A stretch of 64,000 bases of DNA from Escherichia coli. GTDB lineage: Bacteria > Pseudomonadota > Gammaproteobacteria > Enterobacterales > Enterobacteriaceae. A program made the translations under genes and the position numbers. Within the stretch, counting starts at the first letter, position 1. Each line of letters begins with the position of its first letter. Below, piece after piece: positions 11,321 through 50,892 of the stretch. A model generated the notes under the pieces. It made no database searches. It saw nothing but the letters and a program-made list of their open reading frames with translations, and was not told the DNA's origin. The DNA is taken from NCBI RefSeq assembly GCF_009931435.1, contig NZ_CP043414.1. One strand, given 5' to 3'.

Positions 11321-11347
11321 ACAAAAAACGCGCCCGAAGGTGCGTTG
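11321..11347. repeat. attL: left copy of 27-bp direct repeat (acaaaaaacgcgcccgaaggTgcgttg)
   Basis: Matches 49447..49473 with one mismatch; integrase gene lies just inside. Confidence 0.75.
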
Positions 11348-43587: not shown

Positions 43588-45281
43588 AATTGATACAACG
43601 CTGCATGATTAATGGCGAACGGGTGGAAATTGCCGATATAAGCCTTGTTCTTACCCTGAATGCTGCCGGTCGTGGCTTCATTTCTGTTAACAATCTGTCA
43701 CCCGAACACAGCCTTGCCGGCGCAATGGTACAAATTGATCTCGGCCGTGACGGTGAAGCATGGCGCTATTTCTCCGGCTACATTGAGCGCGATCAACCTG
43801 CTGAAAATGGCTCACGTCGCCTTTTTATTCGTGAAGCGGCTGCTGTGCTGGATTTTGATTTCCCTTGCTCCATGCAACACCCGACGTTGCGGGGGGTACT
43901 CGATAATCTGGGGCGACAAAGCGGTATCGTTTTTATCACTCCGGATGCGGATTATGCCAGTATACCAACTCCCTACATCACCCACAGCGGCAGCGGAGCA
44001 CAACTGCTCAGCCAACTGGGGCGAGCATTCAGTATCAGCGATTACGTCTGGCACCCTATGCCGGACGGTTCTGTATTTGTGGGAAGCGCAGCTGATTCAC
44101 GATTTGCCAGTATTACAATGCCGGATATTCCGCAACAGTACACACTCGGGCAAAGCGGCGGAAACAGCATCGACATCATGTTTATGGAAACTGTGCGACC
44201 GGGCGTGAACCTACCGGCCGGGCGCATTACCCGTGTAGCCCTCAACAACGAGAAAATGACCCTGACATGGGAGCGCCTTACCGCCACGGGTACCCCTGTT
44301 TCCAAATCACCATTACGCAGACAAATGGAAACACAGTTCCCAGAACTGGCCAGCGGTACGCTACATACCCGGCTGGCGCGCGTCATTGCGCCAACGGAGC
44401 CCACCACCCTGGGCGACGTGGCCGACAGTTTCCGCCCACGCTACGCCGTCGATGTGCAGTTGCTTGATGAGAACGGCAACGATAAAAGCGACACGCCCGT
44501 TTACCCGGCAGTACCGCTCCCCGTCCCCATGGCTGGCAGTGAGGCGGGATGTTTTGCCTACCCACCGGCAGGCACCATCGTGGAAATATCCAACATTGAA
44601 GGACGTCCGGACAAACCCGTTATCAGGCAAATCTTACCCGCTGGCCATAACCTGCCTGATGTAAAGCCCGGCGAACAGCTGCAGCAACAGCGCGCAGAAG
44701 TGTTTCAGCGCGTCACGACTGACGGAAGCTGGCACAGAGAAACCGATCAGCAAATCAGGGAGCATTCAGCCAGACGAACCATTAACAGCGATCAGGAAGA
44801 ACGCACAACAACAACCAGAACAACAACAGTACAGGCAAACGACATAACCAGCGTTCTGGGAACCAGCAAGCTGATGACAGGCCAGACAGAACACATTACT
44901 ACTGGTCATTATGCGATCGCAGCCGGTGAGCATATCCAGATGGTAGCGCAGGATTTGCTGACTAAACTCAAAGGGGCGACATCCACGATTGAGCGCGACC
45001 TTACTGAAAACGTGGGAGGCCGCAGAACATGCCGGGCGGACGGTGGTCTGGAGTTTACAGCCCCGACAGTATTTATTGGTCGCGGTGGCTCACGGGAAAA
45101 ATCCGGACTTAATCTGCTGACGTTGTTGATTGATATTCTGGATCTGGTTCAGTTGCTGGCCACACACACTGCAAACCACACCCACAGCAACACCGGCGCA
45201 CCAACAAACAACAGCGAACTTGCCGCAGACGCCAAACAGGCTACGAGCCTGCGCGAAAAATACGGTGACCTTATCGCCTGA
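43584..45281 (+). CDS. Baseplate central spike protein (gpV-like C-terminal domain)
   Basis: C-terminal THTANHTHSNTGAPT resembles the His-rich tip motif of P2 gpV as recalled; 565 aa. Confidence 0.55.
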   Translation: MKLIQRCMINGERVEIADISLVLTLNAAGRGFISVNNLSPEHSLAGAMVQIDLGRDGEAWRYFSGYIERDQPAENGSRRLFIREAAAVLDFDFPCSMQHPTLRGVLDNLGRQSGIVFITPDADYASIPTPYITHSGSGAQLLSQLGRAFSISDYVWHPMPDGSVFVGSAADSRFASITMPDIPQQYTLGQSGGNSIDIMFMETVRPGVNLPAGRITRVALNNEKMTLTWERLTATGTPVSKSPLRRQMETQFPELASGTLHTRLARVIAPTEPTTLGDVADSFRPRYAVDVQLLDENGNDKSDTPVYPAVPLPVPMAGSEAGCFAYPPAGTIVEISNIEGRPDKPVIRQILPAGHNLPDVKPGEQLQQQRAEVFQRVTTDGSWHRETDQQIREHSARRTINSDQEERTTTTRTTTVQANDITSVLGTSKLMTGQTEHITTGHYAIAAGEHIQMVAQDLLTKLKGATSTIERDLTENVGGRRTCRADGGLEFTAPTVFIGRGGSREKSGLNLLTLLIDILDLVQLLATHTANHTHSNTGAPTNNSELAADAKQATSLREKYGDLIA

Positions 45282-45880
45282 TCACCGGGCATACCCCCCC
45301 ATAAACGCCCATCACGCAACGCACGGCTCCGGTCGTGCGTTTTCATATCTGCCACCTGATTAATGCGTTCTGCGTGCCATTCTGGCGCTGTATGCGCACA
45401 CCGCGTAAACGGTGTGACGTAAAGCGTGAGGTGACGTAAACCGCGCTACCCCCTCCAACCCGCGGGTTTCGTGTCGAAACAGTTTTTCAGTTTTCTGCCG
45501 TGCAAAAATGACCGCCAGCCCGCGCAGCAACTGAGGGAAAAGCGAAGATCTGAAATTTCACGCTTTGAAATTTTTTGCAGTTTTCAAAGTGGTTTTTACG
45601 ATCGCACAAATGGCCGGAGCAATAAAACCGCATGATATTAAAAGAGTTTTCATACTTTACGCGAGACAAAAAAACGATCACGAAAGGATCGCATCAAACA
45701 GCCATCAAACAAAGAAGGCAGACACGGCGCGGCCTGCACAAAATTAAGCTCCAAAATAAAACTGAAAAAAAGGATCGCAACAAGAAGAAAAGCGCGTAAA
45801 ACGATCGCTGCTGATGTGGCGTTTCTTTATACAAGCTGCTATTTGCGATATGCTGAACACATCAACCTGTGGAGTGCATT

Positions 45881-46507
45881 ATGAAACGAAAATCAAAGTC
45901 TGCTGCCATTGCTGCTATTACTACAGCTCTGACAGCATCACTGGCTCCGGTGCCAGCTAAAAGCACGATACTACCAACAACAGTTATTGAATCCGCGACA
46001 CACGCCAGAGTGGTTTCAATGCTTACATTTGAGCATCATGATGGTCAGGTGTTTCTGCCTCTCGAAGAAGCTATTGAATATATCAACGGGCTGAATGACA
46101 ACATGCGCGCCGCGCTCAATGCAGTCATTGAAGAACGACAGAACAGAGGCAAGGGAGCACTGTTTACTGACAAAACCGCAAAAATCATAAAAATATGCGA
46201 AGAGTCAATTAAGCAGCACACCCGTGTTAAAGAGGCTGTCAAAATTGTAATGGATCCGGATAACCTGGCAAAAATGTATCCGGATAGCCTGGAGCAAAGA
46301 ATCGCCTATCGCAATAAACTGGTTCGTTTTGGTCGGGCAATTGCGCAGGGAGAGTTTATCGCTCGTGATGCCATCAACACCATCAAACGAAGCACCGCAC
46401 CAGACAAAACAACCAGCCTGGGCAATACGCTGTCTGACGGAAATGTGAAAGCAATGATTATTGCCGAGCATAAAAACATGGGACTCCCGGCACCGGAGTT
46501 TTCCTGA
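45881..46507 (+). CDS. Hypothetical protein (208 aa) with signal-peptide-like N-terminus, coupled to the YafO-like gene
   Basis: GGAG RBS before MKRKSK; N-region/hydrophobic stretch MKRKSKSAAIAAITTALTASLAPVPA; TGATG overlap with next gene. Confidence 0.6.
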   Translation: MKRKSKSAAIAAITTALTASLAPVPAKSTILPTTVIESATHARVVSMLTFEHHDGQVFLPLEEAIEYINGLNDNMRAALNAVIEERQNRGKGALFTDKTAKIIKICEESIKQHTRVKEAVKIVMDPDNLAKMYPDSLEQRIAYRNKLVRFGRAIAQGEFIARDAINTIKRSTAPDKTTSLGNTLSDGNVKAMIIAEHKNMGLPAPEFS

Positions 46508-46887
46508 TGGCAAGCAAAGTAAGCATTCATAAAGATGTTGAATACCAGGACATTGCAAAAGTTTACGGAAAGGCTCTGGAAAACTGGTTAAATACCGGTG
46601 TTCTCCCTGACAGATTCGGCAATGAAGGGCAGTGGGAAGATAACGCAAGATTATGTGGTTCGTTTGTATATAAATTACACATAAGACTACCGTCAGAACC
46701 ACCATGGAAGAAAAGCAAAGCCCAAATAGACAGAACTTCAAATATCTATCTGGTTTATACAAGGCACTGGATGGATTATGACAATATACAAATCATCAGC
46801 ATCATGGCCCCAGATGCTCACGAAAAAGCCAAAACTTCTTTCATGGCTGAACTGGAAAGACGGGCTGAAGAATTCCAGAACTCATAA
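46507..46887 (+). CDS. YafO-family toxin-like protein (126 aa)
   Basis: Blocks GVLPDRFGNEG, HIRL, YLVYTR and C-terminal ISIMAPDAHEKAK...AEEF resemble E. coli YafO as I recall it. Confidence 0.55.
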   Translation: MASKVSIHKDVEYQDIAKVYGKALENWLNTGVLPDRFGNEGQWEDNARLCGSFVYKLHIRLPSEPPWKKSKAQIDRTSNIYLVYTRHWMDYDNIQIISIMAPDAHEKAKTSFMAELERRAEEFQNS

Positions 46888-46907
46888 ATTGCCTGATTTT
46901 CTCTCAG

Positions 46908-46942
46908 AAACCCGCAGCGTAAAAACTGTGGGTTTTCTTTTT
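46908..46942 (+). terminator. Rho-independent terminator after the YafO-like operon
   Basis: Hairpin aaacccgcag...ctgtgggttt followed by T-run. Confidence 0.65.
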
Positions 46943-47178
46943 GCTACCCTGATACGTGAGGGTAGCACTCAAAGTGAGGCAATATGTAGGCAACCTATTT
47001 AATACGTAAAAATTAATGCATTAAATGGATATTTACTAGCATGGGTACTGGCTTAAAATATCACAACCCTGTTTTATAACGTACTGAATTTATTAGGTGT
47101 GACGGTTTTCCAATGGGGCTTCCGACATTACGTTCAGCTGATGCTTTTCTTATGTAACGAGAAGACATATATTGGTAA

Positions 47179-47234
47179 GCGATGAAGCGATGAAGCGATG
47201 AAGCGATGAAGCGATGAAGCGATGAAGCGATGTA
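47179..47234. repeat. Octanucleotide tandem repeat (GCGATGAA) x6 plus one degenerate unit, flanked by ATGTAACG
   Basis: Directly visible; about 95 bp upstream of the ATPase start codon. Confidence 0.95.
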
Positions 47235-47251
47235 ACGTCTGTTTGGTTATA

Positions 47252-47296
47252 AACTTCACACTAATAATTTCTAAATGAAATTATTAGTGTGAAGTT
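47252..47296. promoter_or_regulatory. 20-bp perfect inverted repeat (aacttcacactaataatttc / gaaattattagtgtgaagtt, 5-nt spacer): candidate operator or 5'-UTR hairpin
   Basis: Perfect palindrome ending 34 bp upstream of the ATPase ATG; RBS AAGGAA follows. Confidence 0.6.
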
Positions 47297-47329
47297 GATG
47301 TTTATTGTGATTATAACTAAGGAATTAAA

Positions 47330-48799
47330 ATGAAATTATCTCCAGCAGAATTGAAGTTAGAAAGGGGTAAGGTTCAAGATAATAAATTCAATCAATATGT
47401 TAAACGTATCACATTAAAAAATGTCAGAGGGTTTGATGAGGAAATTGTGGAGTTTAAAACACCAGTTACAGCTCTTATCGGGACTAATGGTGGAGGGAAG
47501 TCGACTATATTAGGTGCTGTAGCTCTCGCTTATAAAAATGTTAAGCCAAGCAAGTTTTTCCCTAAATCATTTTATGGGGATGATTCAATGAGTGATTGGG
47601 AAATTGGATTCGAATTGATTGACAAGCCTATTTCAAAAGATAAAAATATTAACAGGACTGCAAAATTTAAACAGATGAAATGGCGCAGAGATAATTTCCC
47701 AGAGCGAAATGTTGTATATGTAGAAATACAAAGAACTGTTCCTGCAGGCGAACTAACTAAGTTTAATAAATTTTTATCTGGCGATGCTAAACAATTTGAA
47801 GAAAAAAATCTCAACCCTGAGACAATAAAATATTGCTCTGCCGTTTTAGATAAAAAGATAGAAGATTACAGATGTATAATAAATAAGCACGATCCATCTT
47901 CAAGAATGTTTGTAGGTAAGGCAATTAATGGTTCTGGTTATTCTCAGTTCCATTTTGGTGCAGGTGAAGCATCAATAATAGATACTATTGATAGAATAGA
48001 GACTGCTGCTGATAATTCTCTTGTTTTAATTGAAGAAATTGAAAATGGACTGCATCCTGTTGCAGTGCGGTTGTTTGTTAACTATTTGACAAATGTAGCA
48101 AAGAGGAAAAAGCTGCAAATAATATTTACAACACATTCGCAGGATGCAGTAAACGAGCTAGAGCCAGAAGCTGTTTGGGCTTCTATTAACAAAAAAGTAT
48201 GGAATGGTAAACTAAGTATTGAAAGTTTACGCGCTATAACGGGACAGAAGATAAATTCGAAAGTTATATATGTTGAAGATTCTTTTGCAAAAGAGTGGGT
48301 TGAAAATGCGATGGATCGATATATTCCAGAACTAGCCTCAACAATAAAAGTCTACACGGCAGGTGGTTACCCCAGCGTGGTTAAAGTAAGTCAATATCAT
48401 AATGAGAACCCTACTATAAATTATCCATCAATCGCATTAGTTGATGGGGATATTAAAGGTAGACCCGGAACTAAAGATCTGCCTGATAATGCAATGTTCA
48501 TCGGGGATGATTATCCTGACGCTACGGTTTTTCATTATATTGCAAATAACATAGAAGAAAATGCCTCAGTTTTGAGGCAAAGATGTTTGTTAACAAGATT
48601 TGACGCTGAAAAGATTAAATCGGAAGTTGAGAGTGTGATGCATTCTGCATGTGATCACCATGTTTATTTTACTAGATTAAGTGATAAATTAGATTTTGCC
48701 TCAGAACTATTCATTCGAGCTGGTATGATAGATTTATTTAATGAGAAAAATCCAGAATTTTGGTCCCCAATTATGGACTTCATTAAAAAAGGTCTATAG
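47330..48799 (+). CDS. OLD-family-like ABC ATPase fused to Toprim/DUF4435-like domain (489 aa); candidate antiphage defence protein
   Basis: Walker A GTNGGGKST, Walker B LVLIEEIE, H-loop TTHS; C-terminal YVEDS (Glu) and ALVDGD (DxD); AT-rich gene. Confidence 0.65.
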   Translation: MKLSPAELKLERGKVQDNKFNQYVKRITLKNVRGFDEEIVEFKTPVTALIGTNGGGKSTILGAVALAYKNVKPSKFFPKSFYGDDSMSDWEIGFELIDKPISKDKNINRTAKFKQMKWRRDNFPERNVVYVEIQRTVPAGELTKFNKFLSGDAKQFEEKNLNPETIKYCSAVLDKKIEDYRCIINKHDPSSRMFVGKAINGSGYSQFHFGAGEASIIDTIDRIETAADNSLVLIEEIENGLHPVAVRLFVNYLTNVAKRKKLQIIFTTHSQDAVNELEPEAVWASINKKVWNGKLSIESLRAITGQKINSKVIYVEDSFAKEWVENAMDRYIPELASTIKVYTAGGYPSVVKVSQYHNENPTINYPSIALVDGDIKGRPGTKDLPDNAMFIGDDYPDATVFHYIANNIEENASVLRQRCLLTRFDAEKIKSEVESVMHSACDHHVYFTRLSDKLDFASELFIRAGMIDLFNEKNPEFWSPIMDFIKKGL

Positions 48800-48865
48800 T
48801 AATAATGCAAAAATATAATATTTAGTTTGCGATTTATATTTTTCATAATGAATTGTTGAGAAAAT

Positions 48866-48901
48866 AAGAGAGCATCGAAAATTGAGGCTCTCTTATTTTT
48901 A
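48866..48901 (+). terminator. Rho-independent terminator after the ATPase gene
   Basis: Hairpin aagagagc...gctctctt followed by T-run. Confidence 0.7.
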
Positions 48902-48959
48902 TGAGATATCTCTAATGTATTAATCGTTTTATTTTGGTGCTACCACCACTGATGCTAAC

Positions 48960-49346
48960 TTGTCGATCAGACATTCGCACTATTCAATATCTTTTAGGCT
49001 CCGCAATGAAAACGCCCCCGAAGGAACAATCCCCCGTCAATCGGTTGCCAAAGGCCATTTAGGTAAATCGCCTTCGAGGTCGTTCGATGGCTGCATGACG
49101 TTCCCGGTTATCCCGTCAAAGAAAATGCACTCGACCGGAAAACCAGAAGAACTAATGGCGGAGTTGGTCAGGACTGCGAATAGTGGCGGAACAGTCCTTG
49201 ATCCTTTTATGGGGCCAGGGACAACGGGTGTGGCTGCACTGAAAGCAGGGCGAAAATTTATTGGTATAGAGACCAGTGATCATTATTTTGAAGTAGCAGC
49301 ACAGCGACTTCGGGGGACTATTACCACAACCATTTCGACTACATAA
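48960..49346 (+). pseudogene. 3' fragment of a beta-class DNA methyltransferase gene (N6-adenine or N4-cytosine), N-terminally truncated
   Basis: HSTGKPEELMAEL and VLDPFMGPGTTGVAALKAGRKFIGIE (SAM-binding FxGxG) present; no catalytic DPPY region upstream. Confidence 0.6.
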
Positions 49347-49350
49347 GACA

Positions 49351-49378
49351 AAGCCCGCATTTTTGCGGGCTTGTATAT
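49351..49378 (+). terminator. Terminator hairpin after the methyltransferase remnant
   Basis: aagcccgca tttt tgcgggctt stem-loop. Confidence 0.6.
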
Positions 49379-49446
49379 CATTAGTGATGTGGACAGTTTG
49401 TGGATGTTTACAAGAAATAAGCTAATAGAAACAATTTGTTATCTTT

Positions 49447-49473
49447 ACAAAAAACGCGCCCGAAGGCGCGTTG
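49447..49473. repeat. attR: right copy of the 27-bp direct repeat; also the raiA terminator hairpin
   Basis: acaaaaaacgcgcccgaaggcgcgttg; perfect hairpin acgcgcc/ggcgcgt plus T-run on the raiA strand. Confidence 0.75.
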
Positions 49474-49495
49474 GCGATACACTCAATATAAAGGA

Positions 49496-49891
<396 letters not shown>

Positions 49892-50028: not shown

Positions 50029-50808
50029 CTAAATCGCTTCAGTTTCACAACTAACAGAATAAAAAAACGGCAGCTCAAGGCTGTAATGCCAGTCAGTTAA
50101 GCAACTGACTGGCTCTTTTTCGGGGCTGTGGGGTATTTCCAGGGCCTCTCCTTTACCACTCTCGGGAAGGCCCTTTCCCTTCTTGTCGGTAATTTCACTG
50201 GCTGTCCCATACTTGCAAGATCGCGCATCAGCTCCGGTATACGTCCCGGTGAAGCGCATGGCGTCCGTCATCGACGTCAGCAGATGGCTGGTCAGTTCCA
50301 TCTGGCAGACCATTTTGACCTGCGGGTAGAGCGCCGGGTTCCCGGCATGTGTCTGGCGGGGGAAGGCTGCATCGTTCTCTGGTGTATCCGGTGTGCGCCA
50401 GAACACACCATCGATGGCCAGCAGGGTCAGGCTGCACCAGTGCGGATGCAGCGTGGCGTTATGCCAGAGCTGCGCTGTTTTCGTGAACACGCGGCGGACA
50501 GCCTCACTTCCCAGGCGCTGGCGGGCCTGAATAACGGCACTGGGGGCAACGAAGGGGCGATTGCCCGGCAGCATGATGTCCAGGCGATTCACAATCTGGT
50601 GAAGAGGTTCTTTACGCTCAAGCGCCATGCCAACAATACACCAGACCATCATTTCGAGGGGAAGACGGCGCTTGCGTAGCGTTACAGTACCTGATTCGGC
50701 AAGGCAACGAGAGATGAGTTCGGGGTCGAGGTAATCCCCCAGAAAAGTCAGTGGGTTACGCAGAGAATCGTAACGGGATACCAAATCAAGGGCCTGTCCA
50801 ATGAGCAT
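50029..50808 (-). pseudogene. Truncated/frameshifted IS4 transposase (InsG N-terminal ~200 aa fused to out-of-frame tail)
   Basis: N-terminal sequence matches IS4 InsG as recalled, then diverges after HLLTSMTDAMRF. Confidence 0.75.
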
Positions 50809-50892
50809 AAAAAAATCCGGAAACGAGTGAGCGTTTCCGGATTCTTACACAGCCACTGAATCGGTCAACTGATCCTTAACTGATCGGCATTA
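50084..50892. mobile_element. IS4 copy with internal deletion (~0.8 kb versus 1.4 kb full length), with target-site duplication
   Basis: Terminal inverted repeats taatgccagtcagttaag / cttaactgatcggcatta; flanking direct repeat cagctcaagg(g)ctg at 50071..50083 and 50893..50906. Confidence 0.75.

What the first reader, a model, noticed from the sequence alone, without database searches (positions are those of the whole stretch)
48960..49346. Truncated DNA methyltransferase gene adjacent to the ATPase cassette
The reading frame retains the C-terminal HSTGKPEEL and FMGPGTTG SAM-binding motifs of a beta-class MTase but lacks the N-terminal catalytic DPPY region. The abrupt AT-rich sequence immediately upstream suggests the ATPase cassette inserted into, or replaced the 5' part of, an ancestral phage methyltransferase gene.
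Basis: partly seen in the sequence, partly recalled or inferred. Interest (0 to 1): 0.4.

Follow-up and report, generated by a model that had tools for sequence, protein, structure and literature searches.

The report
Dead methyltransferase remnant at prophage end
This is the non-functional last third of a phage DNA methyltransferase gene, left as a recombination scar at the right end of an E. coli P2-family prophage next to its attachment site; it is an ordinary pseudogene that RefSeq already annotates as one.

Summary
The ORF at 48960-49346 carries the C-terminal part of a beta-class N6/N4 DNA methyltransferase (Pfam PF01555, E=1.7e-18, only profile positions 160-220 of 221). No DPPY-type motif occurs in any frame.

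True homology starts at 49049, at about codon 171 of a 268-aa gene. The first 30 ORF codons are not methyltransferase.

The window is E. coli chromosome. A hybrid P2-family prophage sits in the raiA terminator, with attL at 11321 and attR at 49447. The intact gene, preceded by com, lies at this same spot beside attR/raiA in 107 of 5,426 complete E. coli genomes. The truncated form occurs in 16, always with the ATPase.

The ATPase is HEC-04, a published single-gene defence system. It does not abut the methyltransferase. Three other relics lie between them:
- the 3' end of a minus-strand 132-aa gene
- a 15/16 copy of the att core
- half a hok terminator

The fragment is decaying, with elevated pN/pS, hits in conserved motifs and a frameshift in one strain.

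Best reading: a scar of recombination between two phage lineages that share the raiA site. Low interest.

The parts
49049..49346 (+). Methyltransferase remnant. It covers codons ~171-268 plus the stop of a 268-aa com-linked beta-class DNA methyltransferase. It retains HSTGKPEEL (intact alleles: HPTGKPEEL) and FMGPGTTG (intact: FMGSGTTG).
   Evidence: 96% nt identity to the intact gene of strain CFS3292 from 49049 onward. Protein comparison. Pfam hit. PGAP pseudogene call.
48960..49048 (+). This is not methyltransferase sequence; the open frame here runs by chance across three other relics.
   Evidence: No homology to intact methyltransferase genes upstream of 49049. No Pfam match for residues 1-54.
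48929..49007 (-). Decayed 3' end (about 25 codons, with an internal stop) of a 128-132-aa gene. In related prophages this gene lies on the minus strand between the ATPase (or the tail genes) and the attP arm.
   Evidence: The minus-strand translation LRSLKDIE*CECLIDKLASVVVAPK* matches L010 LRSLKDVEACERLIDKLASVVVAPK at 22 of 25 residues. Nucleotide homology to L010/L011 ends at 49007.
49009..49024 (+). Relic att core, AAAACGCCCCCGAAGG, 15/16 identical to the attL/attR core. No Int arm sites lie beside it, so it is presumably dead.
   Evidence: It is one of only three hits in the 64-kb window at up to 2 mismatches. The other two are attL and attR. Chance expectation is 0.10.
49023..49051 (+). 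Right half of a hok-locus terminator hairpin plus its downstream bases. It joins the methyltransferase at a CAA(A)GG microhomology.
   Evidence: 28-29 bp at 96% identity to the sequence just after hok in the P2-like prophages L002, L003 and L022.
49351..49372 (.). GC-rich hairpin terminator just after the methyltransferase stop codon. It is also present after the intact gene.
   Evidence: Terminator scan. The same hairpin follows the intact methyltransferase in L002.
49385..49446 (+). P arm of attR. It contains direct TGTGGA repeats (GATGTGGACAGTTTGTGGATG) like those in the int-proximal arm at attL.
   Evidence: Read directly from the sequence. The function as Int arm-type sites is inferred from P2-family biology and was not tested.
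49447..49466 (+). attR core, ACAAAAAACGCGCCCGAAGG, which is the raiA/RaiZ terminator. The attL copy is at 11321-11340.
   Evidence: 20-bp exact direct repeat. Prophage-free genomes match only from this point onward. K-12 annotation of the locus.
47330..48799 (+). The 'ATPase cassette': a 489-aa ABC ATPase-TOPRIM protein. PADLOC classes it as HEC-04; PGAP calls it 'ATP-dependent nuclease'.
   Evidence: PADLOC HEC-04 E=6e-204 over residues 2-488. Pfam AAA_15 and AAA_21. HEC-04 is a published single-gene defence that needs Walker A and the TOPRIM metal site.
47051..49007 (+). Block shared at 83-86% nt identity with IMG/VR prophages of another enterobacterium. It holds part of an upstream repeat region, the ATPase, its terminator (48861-48899) and the 132-aa-gene remnant.
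   Evidence: BLAST against L009-L012. Left edge at 47050/47051 from the comparison with EcPF40.
46908..47050 (+). P2-type segment (terminator plus hairpin plus about 80 bp). In P2-like prophages it follows the hok/TM2 cargo genes.
   Evidence: 93-96% identity to L022 (EcPF40) and L025 (ST69); partial match to L002 and L003.

Best explanation
The feature is a dead 3' remnant (codons ~171-268) of a com-controlled beta-class DNA methyltransferase. P2-like phages that integrate into the raiA terminator carry this gene as their last gene before attP. It cannot methylate: the catalytic DPPY half, the start codon, the ribosome-binding site and the com gene are all gone.

Origin (inferred): two peduovirus-like lineages that use the same raiA att site recombined. 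One lineage carried ...hok-(TM2)-com-MTase-attP. The other carried ...tail-HEC-04 ATPase-132-aa gene-attP.

1. The ATPase-bearing right end was joined at its att core to the hok terminator of the methyltransferase-bearing element. This happened through tandem or secondary-site Int recombination, or through illegitimate recombination.
2. One deletion then removed the 132-aa gene's 5' part and its P arm.
3. A second deletion ran from the hok terminator to methyltransferase codon ~170, across a CAA(A)GG microhomology.

The remnant persists only because it sits between a selected defence gene and the still-needed P arm and core of attR. It hitchhikes and is slowly decaying.

The confidence of 0.88 is for the dead-remnant reading. 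The specific order and mechanism of the origin events is worth about 0.4.
For: Shown:
- Setting: the remnant lies inside the prophage, about 100 bp from the attR core.
- Intact counterpart: a com-MTase pair lies contiguous with attR/raiA in 107 of 5,426 complete E. coli genomes. The isolated phage Chuche has hok-com-MTase-attP-int in that order.
- Truncated form: found in 16 of 5,426 genomes, always with the same 157-bp spacer (98.7-100% identical) and the ATPase. This points to a single origin.
- Breakpoint anatomy: the 132-aa-gene remnant, the att-core relic (chance expectation 0.1) and half of a hok terminator.
- Native context of the block: ATPase, then the 132-aa gene on the opposite strand, then arm and core (L010, L011). 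L017 has the same layout without the ATPase.
- Hybrid prophage: the window prophage shares with the methyltransferase-type P2-like prophage only attL-int...parM (up to 21631) and 49049 to attR. That is one contiguous attP-spanning segment in the circular phage.
- Decay: pN/pS of the remnant against the nearest intact allele is 0.47-0.83, against 0.02-0.05 among intact alleles (Fisher p=0.009).
- Motif damage: HPT became HST and GSG became GPG, at residues identical between the intact alleles and the solved H. pylori DpnA-type adenine MTase chain 5hek. Other copies show GQG or a frameshift at the same motif.
- Expression: the ATPase terminator lies upstream.
Against: - The order and mechanism of the events are inferred. 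No intermediate was found, such as a tandem lysogen or an intact 132-aa gene-arm-core-hok joint. The joint k-mer is absent from the viral, genome and metagenome collections.
- The pieces are not collinear with a single P2-type parent. The segment that normally follows hok/TM2 lies upstream of the block, and the hok terminator piece lies downstream. At least three events are needed, and other orders are possible.
- The hok terminator resembles the att core only modestly.
- Substitution counts are small (6-8 nonsynonymous, 3-4 synonymous).
- The 99 homologous codons are still open in the window, so lack of expression is inferred, not measured.
Confidence: 0.88

Rival explanations
1. Single-event cassette insertion or replacement. 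A mobile ATPase cassette landed in the methyltransferase gene and removed its 5' part, so the cassette end is the breakpoint.
For: In the P2-backbone relative ST69, the block occupies the place of com plus methyltransferase codons 1-170. The block is AT-rich (GC 0.28-0.39) against about 0.5 for the remnant. All 16 cassette-bearing genomes carry the remnant.
Against: Three unrelated relics lie between the ATPase terminator and the breakpoint. No terminal inverted repeats or target-site duplication flank the block. The block's native neighbours in other prophages are the 132-aa gene and attP, not a methyltransferase. EC361-type genomes have a complete methyltransferase upstream of the same unit.
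Confidence: 0.12
2. The DNA of the remnant is kept because it still works as DNA. It could be part of the attP P arm (Int/IHF sites), or a spacer and terminator that insulates attP and int from read-through.
For: The remnant ends 100 bp from the core. The methyltransferase's own terminator hairpin (49351-49372) and the TGTGGA arm repeats follow immediately. The attR-side segment and int are of the same lineage, so a cognate arm is needed.
Against: The recognisable arm repeats lie downstream of the stop codon. Relatives L010 and L017 have a completely different sequence (the 132-aa gene) at the same distance from a very similar arm and core. The remnant itself tolerates substitutions and a frameshifting indel.
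Confidence: 0.1
3. The 128-aa ORF encodes a functional truncated protein, for example a SAM-binding domain that acts as a regulator, or one half of a split enzyme.
For: The frame is open for 128 codons in the window, and motif I is formally still F-x-G-x-G.
Against: - The only start is a TTG, lying in unrelated relic sequence, and the ATPase terminator lies just upstream.
- Conserved HPT and GSG residues are mutated, and differently in different strains.
- Strain A2 has a frameshift.
- pN/pS is raised.
- No DPPY-type partner was found: three six-frame motif hits in the prophage, none in 48700-49400, and no second methyltransferase in the PGAP annotation of the near-identical prophage.
Confidence: 0.03

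Closest known systems
[quoted passage not shown]
   Same: The remnant is 96% identical in DNA to the last 99 codons, and the terminator, P arm, att core and chromosomal site (raiA) are the same.
   Different: The window lacks com and codons 1-170, including DPPY. It carries eight amino-acid changes against the CFS3292 allele, two of them in conserved motifs.
Beta-class N6-adenine/N4-cytosine DNA methyltransferases (Pfam PF01555; closest solved chain 5hek, deposited as H. pylori adenine-specific DNA methyltransferase DpnA; also M.RsrI, M.MboIIA, CcrM, M.PvuII)
   Same: The intact parent aligns end to end with 5hek. DPPY lies near the N-terminus and HPTxK plus DPFMGSGTTG near the C-terminus, which is the beta-class motif order.
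   Different: The remnant covers only the C-terminal cofactor-binding part, so it is not a member as an enzyme.
Phage Mu com-mom translational control (recalled from the literature)
   Same: In relatives a small Com-family zinc-finger gene overlaps the start of the DNA-modification gene.
   Different: The controlled gene is a methyltransferase, not Mom, and com is absent from the window. Regulation was not tested.
HEC-04 (Hma-embedded candidate 04), a single-gene ABC ATPase-TOPRIM anti-phage system
   Same: The neighbouring 489-aa protein matches the PADLOC HEC-04 model over its full length at E=6e-204. The published system is a single gene.
   Different: Here it is prophage cargo next to attP rather than embedded in an Hma system. 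Its activity in this strain is untested.
Secondary-site integration and tandem lysogeny of P2-family phages (recalled from the literature)
   Same: An att-core copy is joined, near the centre of the core's dyad, to a terminator hairpin of another prophage.
   Different: No intermediate was observed. The arm sites next to the inner core are deleted. The mechanism is inferred.

Membership tests
Beta-class N6/N4 DNA methyltransferase (PF01555) | Significant match to the family profile | tested here: met
   E=1.7e-18 and 67.9 bits (cut-off 26.7), but only profile positions 160-220 of 221.
Beta-class N6/N4 DNA methyltransferase (PF01555) | Catalytic motif IV, (D/N/S)PP(Y/F/W/H) | tested here: not met
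   No such motif in six frames of 48700-49400. The intact homologue has ITDPPYSSG.
Beta-class N6/N4 DNA methyltransferase (PF01555) | Motif I, FxGxG (AdoMet binding), preceded by HPTxKP | tested here: inconclusive
   Present as FMGPGTTG and HSTGKP. The Ser-to-Pro and Pro-to-Ser changes hit residues identical between the intact alleles and chain 5hek.
Beta-class N6/N4 DNA methyltransferase (PF01555) | Complete catalytic domain (motif IV to motif I on one polypeptide) | tested here: not met
   Only 99 of 268 codons remain; homology begins at 49049.
com-controlled modification module of P2-like phages | Com-family gene overlapping the 5' end of the methyltransferase gene | tested here: not met
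   Present in L002, L003, L008 and phage Chuche. Absent from the window and from the PGAP annotation of the near-identical prophage.
Pseudogene / recombination scar | Loss of the start and 5' region relative to intact orthologues at the same locus | tested here: met
   Intact in 107 genomes and truncated in 16 at the same site.
Pseudogene / recombination scar | Relaxed selection and independent disabling mutations | tested here: met
   pN/pS is 0.47-0.83 against 0.02-0.05 (Fisher p=0.009). Strain A2 has a frameshift and ETEC1716 has GQG. Counts are small.
Pseudogene / recombination scar | No transcription or translation | not testable with these tools
   Only indirect evidence: the ATPase terminator lies upstream, and the only start is a TTG lying in unrelated relic sequence.
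Functional P2-type att site (for the inner core at 49009-49024) | Core sequence | tested here: met
   15/16 match. It is one of three hits in the window, with 0.1 expected by chance.
Functional P2-type att site (for the inner core at 49009-49024) | Flanking arm-type Int sites | tested here: not met
   The core is flanked by the 132-aa-gene remnant and the hok terminator half. The TGTGGA repeats occur only next to the outer attR and attL.
HEC-04 defence system (neighbouring ATPase) | Full-length match to the HEC-04 model, as a single gene | tested here: met
   E=6e-204 over residues 2-488 of 489. Described as a single-gene system. Defence activity was not tested here.
Transposon or other discrete mobile cassette (for the ATPase block) | Terminal inverted repeats and target-site duplication | tested here: not met
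   No flanking repeats in 45200-49520.

The most novel reading that the evidence does not exclude
The 420-bp scar preserves a fossil of Int-mediated recombination at a secondary site. The att core of an ATPase-bearing peduovirus was exchanged, at the centre of its dyad, with the hok terminator of a resident com-methyltransferase P2-like prophage. That fused two prophages and moved the HEC-04 defence gene onto a new integration module. The module has since spread to three different phage backbones.
Probability: 0.35. Interest if true: 0.3.

Novelty: already known. Interest (0 to 1): 0.12.

Why it matters
It matters little on its own. It is a correctly recognisable pseudogene, and RefSeq already flags it as one. 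For annotation, the 128-aa ORF should not be called a methyltransferase, and the prophage in this window has no modification function. The modest wider value is as a worked example: the attP-proximal cargo slot of P2-family phages accumulates layered scars while a defence gene (HEC-04) is passed between phage backbones.

Tried and rejected
- Alternative start or frame giving a full methyltransferase: rejected. There is no DPPY-type motif in any frame and homology stops at 49049.
- Transposon-like cassette: no inverted repeats or target duplication.
- A longer hok remnant upstream of 49005: local alignment of 48800-49020 to the hok locus scores no better than shuffled sequence.
- The 157-bp spacer in other E. 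coli contexts: found only in the same 16 genomes.
- Near-identical DNA in isolated phages: none. A protein search found phage Chuche for the methyltransferase.
- Intermediates carrying the core/hok joint: no hit in the viral, genome or metagenome collections.
- Function of the 132-aa gene: no Pfam or NCBIfam match.
- The published P2 defence hotspot paper (PMC9122126) does not mention ogr, attR or hok, so I do not equate this slot with that hotspot.
- Rfam: only sub-threshold hits.

Full report
**What is at the coordinates.** The ORF at 48960-49346 (+, TTG start, 128 aa) exists and contains HSTGKPEEL and FMGPGTTG. Pfam N6_N4_Mtase (PF01555) matches at E=1.7e-18. The match covers only residues 55-114 against profile positions 160-220 of 221, the extreme C-terminal part. 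PADLOC type II methyltransferase models hit the same end. No (D/N/S)PP(Y/F/W/H) motif occurs in any frame of 48700-49400. In strain 7_33_46A, whose locus is 99.4% identical, PGAP annotates the equivalent of 49047-49346 as 'DNA methyltransferase; incomplete; missing N-terminus'.

**Genomic setting.** The window is E. coli chromosome, with aroF-tyrA-pheA on the left and raiA-bamD-rluD-yfiH-clpB on the right.
- A 38-kb prophage lies between pheL/pheA and raiA.
- A 20-bp direct repeat, ACAAAAAACGCGCCCGAAGG, at 11321 and 49447 marks attL and attR.
- This repeat is the raiA/RaiZ terminator. Prophage-free genomes match only from that point onward.
- The remnant therefore lies inside the prophage, 100 bp from the attR core. 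In between are a hairpin terminator (49351-49372) and a P arm with TGTGGA repeats (read from the sequence; their function is inferred).

**Intact versions at the same place.**
- In strain CFS3292, a P2-like prophage at the same site ends ...D-ogr-hok-TM2-com-MTase (268 aa)-attR-raiA.
- That protein has ITDPPYSSG near the N-terminus, and HPTGKPEEL and FMGSGTTG near the C-terminus.
- It aligns end to end with the solved H. pylori DpnA-type adenine methyltransferase (PDB 5hek). Its C-terminal part also matches M.RsrI, M.MboIIA, CcrM and M.PvuII. The motif order is that of the beta class.
- A query spanning mid-methyltransferase to raiA is covered at 80% or more in 107 of 5,426 complete E. coli genomes.
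- The com-MTase pair as such occurs in 172 genomes, some at other att sites with a different 3' end.
- The isolated phage Chuche has hok-com-MTase-(attP)-int.
- The truncated version occurs in 16 of 5,426 genomes, always beside raiA and always with the ATPase.

**Breakpoint anatomy.** Homology to the intact gene begins at 49049, the third base of codon 170. Going upstream from there:
- **49023-49051** is the right half of the terminator hairpin that follows hok in P2-like prophages (28-29 bp at 96%). The joint shows a CAA(A)GG microhomology between TTGCCAAGG (hok terminator) and GCAAAGGCC (methyltransferase).
- **49009-49024**, AAAACGCCCCCGAAGG, matches the att core at 15/16. At up to 2 mismatches the window has only three hits (attL, attR and this one), against 0.10 expected by chance.
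- **48929-49007** on the minus strand translates to LRSLKDIE*CECLIDKLASVVVAPK*. This matches 22 of 25 residues of the C-terminus of a 132-aa protein encoded next to attP in related prophages.

**Where the ATPase block comes from.**
- The 489-aa protein matches the PADLOC model HEC-04 at E=6e-204.
- HEC-04 is a published single-gene ABC ATPase-TOPRIM defence. It needs its Walker A motif and its TOPRIM metal site (bioRxiv 10.1101/2024.01.29.577857).
- IMG/VR contigs L009-L012 carry the same block at 83-86% nt identity, from about 47053 or 47264 to 49007.
- In L010 and L011 the order is tail gene, repeat region, ATPase (forward), terminator, 132-aa gene (reverse), arm (GATGTGG.. repeats), then core AAAACGCGCCCGAAGG.
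- L017 has the same layout without the ATPase. Its host flank is only 84-87% identical to E. coli, so it comes from another enterobacterium.
- The ATPase's native right-hand neighbours are therefore the 132-aa gene and attP, not a methyltransferase.
- On the left, 46908-47050 is a P2-type segment that follows the hok/TM2 cargo in prophages such as EcPF40 (93-96%). The block starts at 47051.
- No inverted repeats or target duplications flank the block.

**The prophage is a hybrid.**
- Against the CFS3292 prophage, the window matches only attL-int-early genes-rep-parM (up to 21631, 93-95%) and 49049 to attR and beyond (97.7%).
- In the circular phage these two pieces are one contiguous attP-spanning segment. 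The 27 kb of late genes and cargo between them is of the other lineage.
- The remnant marks the right-hand edge of that exchange.
- The unit ATPase + scar + remnant + attR is 98-100% conserved across the 16 genomes. It has three different left neighbours:
  - YafO toxin (window, 7_33_46A, ETEC1716, A2, MB06234)
  - a complete com-MTase' copy (EC361, rl0044; frameshifted in A_5)
  - hok (ST69)
  
.
- The scar therefore arose once and has since been moved by recombination.

**Decay.**
- Over the 79 comparable codons, intact alleles differ by 12-13 synonymous and 1-2 nonsynonymous changes (pN/pS 0.02-0.05).
- The remnant differs from its nearest intact allele by 3-4 synonymous and 6-8 nonsynonymous changes (pN/pS 0.47-0.83). 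Fisher p=0.009 for 6:4 against 1:13.
- The changes include HPT to HST and GSG to GPG, at residues identical between the intact alleles and chain 5hek.
- Other copies have GQG (ETEC1716) or a frameshift at the same motif (A2).
- The fragment has only a TTG start, lying in unrelated relic sequence, and sits downstream of the ATPase terminator.
- The near-identical annotated prophage lists no other methyltransferase.

**Most likely history (inferred).** Two peduovirus-like lineages share the raiA att site. The right end of the ATPase-bearing lineage (ATPase-132-aa gene-P arm-core) became joined at its core to the hok terminator of a com-MTase-bearing P2-like element. The join could have come from tandem lysogeny followed by Int-promoted deletion to a pseudo-site, from secondary-site integration, or from illegitimate recombination.

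The crossover falls just after the loop of the dyad-symmetric core (CGCCCC-CGAA-GG|AACAAT). That position is where strand exchange would be expected. Two deletions then removed the 132-aa gene's 5' part with its arm, and the stretch from the hok terminator to methyltransferase codon 170.

The outer P arm and core match the int lineage, and remain as the only complete attR. The remnant is trapped between that arm and a useful defence gene. No intermediates were found. The P2-type pieces are not collinear with one parent, so the exact order of events stays open.

**Comparison with the known, and verdict.** The parent gene is an ordinary member of the beta-class PF01555 family. It sits in a com-MTase module that resembles Mu com-mom in layout. 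The remnant fails the family's defining catalytic feature and is not an enzyme. It is wrong in detail about the junction partner, the single-event idea and the ORF start. This is a known kind of object that RefSeq already annotates as a pseudogene. Interest is low. The only mildly novel element is the fossil inner att core, which suggests how a HEC-04 gene changed phage backbone.

Noticed in passing
window 47177-47232: An 8-bp tandem repeat (GCGATGAA)n lies about 100-150 bp upstream of the HEC-04 ATPase start. The copy number is 6 in the window and 8-13 in eight related genomes. It might change promoter spacing or expression (contingency-like), but this is untested.
   Followed up: partly
window 47252-47296: A 20-bp-stem near-perfect palindrome (AACTTCACACTAATAATTTC...GAAATTATTAGTGTGAAGTT) lies immediately upstream of the ATPase ribosome-binding site. 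It overlaps promoter-like hexamers on both strands. It could be an operator or an attenuator.
   Followed up: no
window 50081-50892 (ORF 50029-50808, minus strand): About 0.8 kb lies between raiA and bamD that is absent from CFS3292 and 7_33_46A. It encodes a 259-aa ORF with an IS4 transposase N-terminal domain (PF13006, E=2.5e-33). It looks like a truncated IS4-family remnant.
   Followed up: partly
window 45869-46887: A YafO-family toxin gene (46507-46887, PF13957 E=1.1e-27) abuts a 212-aa gene upstream with no family match; that gene is presumably its antitoxin. Some RefSeq records name the 212-aa homologue 'SufA', which looks like a misannotation.
   Followed up: no
L010 5609-6007 (-), L017 4013-4399 (+); remnant at window 48929-49007 (-): A conserved 128-132-aa protein of unknown function lies directly beside attP in raiA-integrating prophages of another enterobacterium. 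It has no Pfam or NCBIfam match. A 71%-identical E. coli stretch is annotated 'RuvC family protein'.
   Followed up: partly
L010 3440-3830 and L017 4480-4800 (window 47053-47125 keeps a piece): A cluster of short repeats (CATCACAA / GTGTGACGG / GTGTGATGG) lies between the last tail gene and the attP-proximal gene in the related prophages. It looks iteron- or operator-like. Its function is unknown.
   Followed up: no
window 11321-49466 (whole prophage): The prophage is a hybrid. The P2/186-like int-early-rep-parM arm is 93-95% identical to CFS3292. The head, lysis and tail region belongs to a different peduovirus-like lineage (DUF2586/DUF2590 tail genes, ogr beside the portal gene).
   Followed up: partly
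window 49335-49458 (-): There is a weak Rfam MicC-like hit (31.8 bits against a gathering score of 90, E=0.071) across the terminator and P arm on the minus strand. It is probably chance similarity of a terminator hairpin.
   Followed up: no
L028 495-1287 (strain A_5): In one EC361-type genome, the full-length methyltransferase copy upstream of the ATPase is itself frameshifted. The modification function can therefore be lost even where a complete copy was retained.
   Followed up: no
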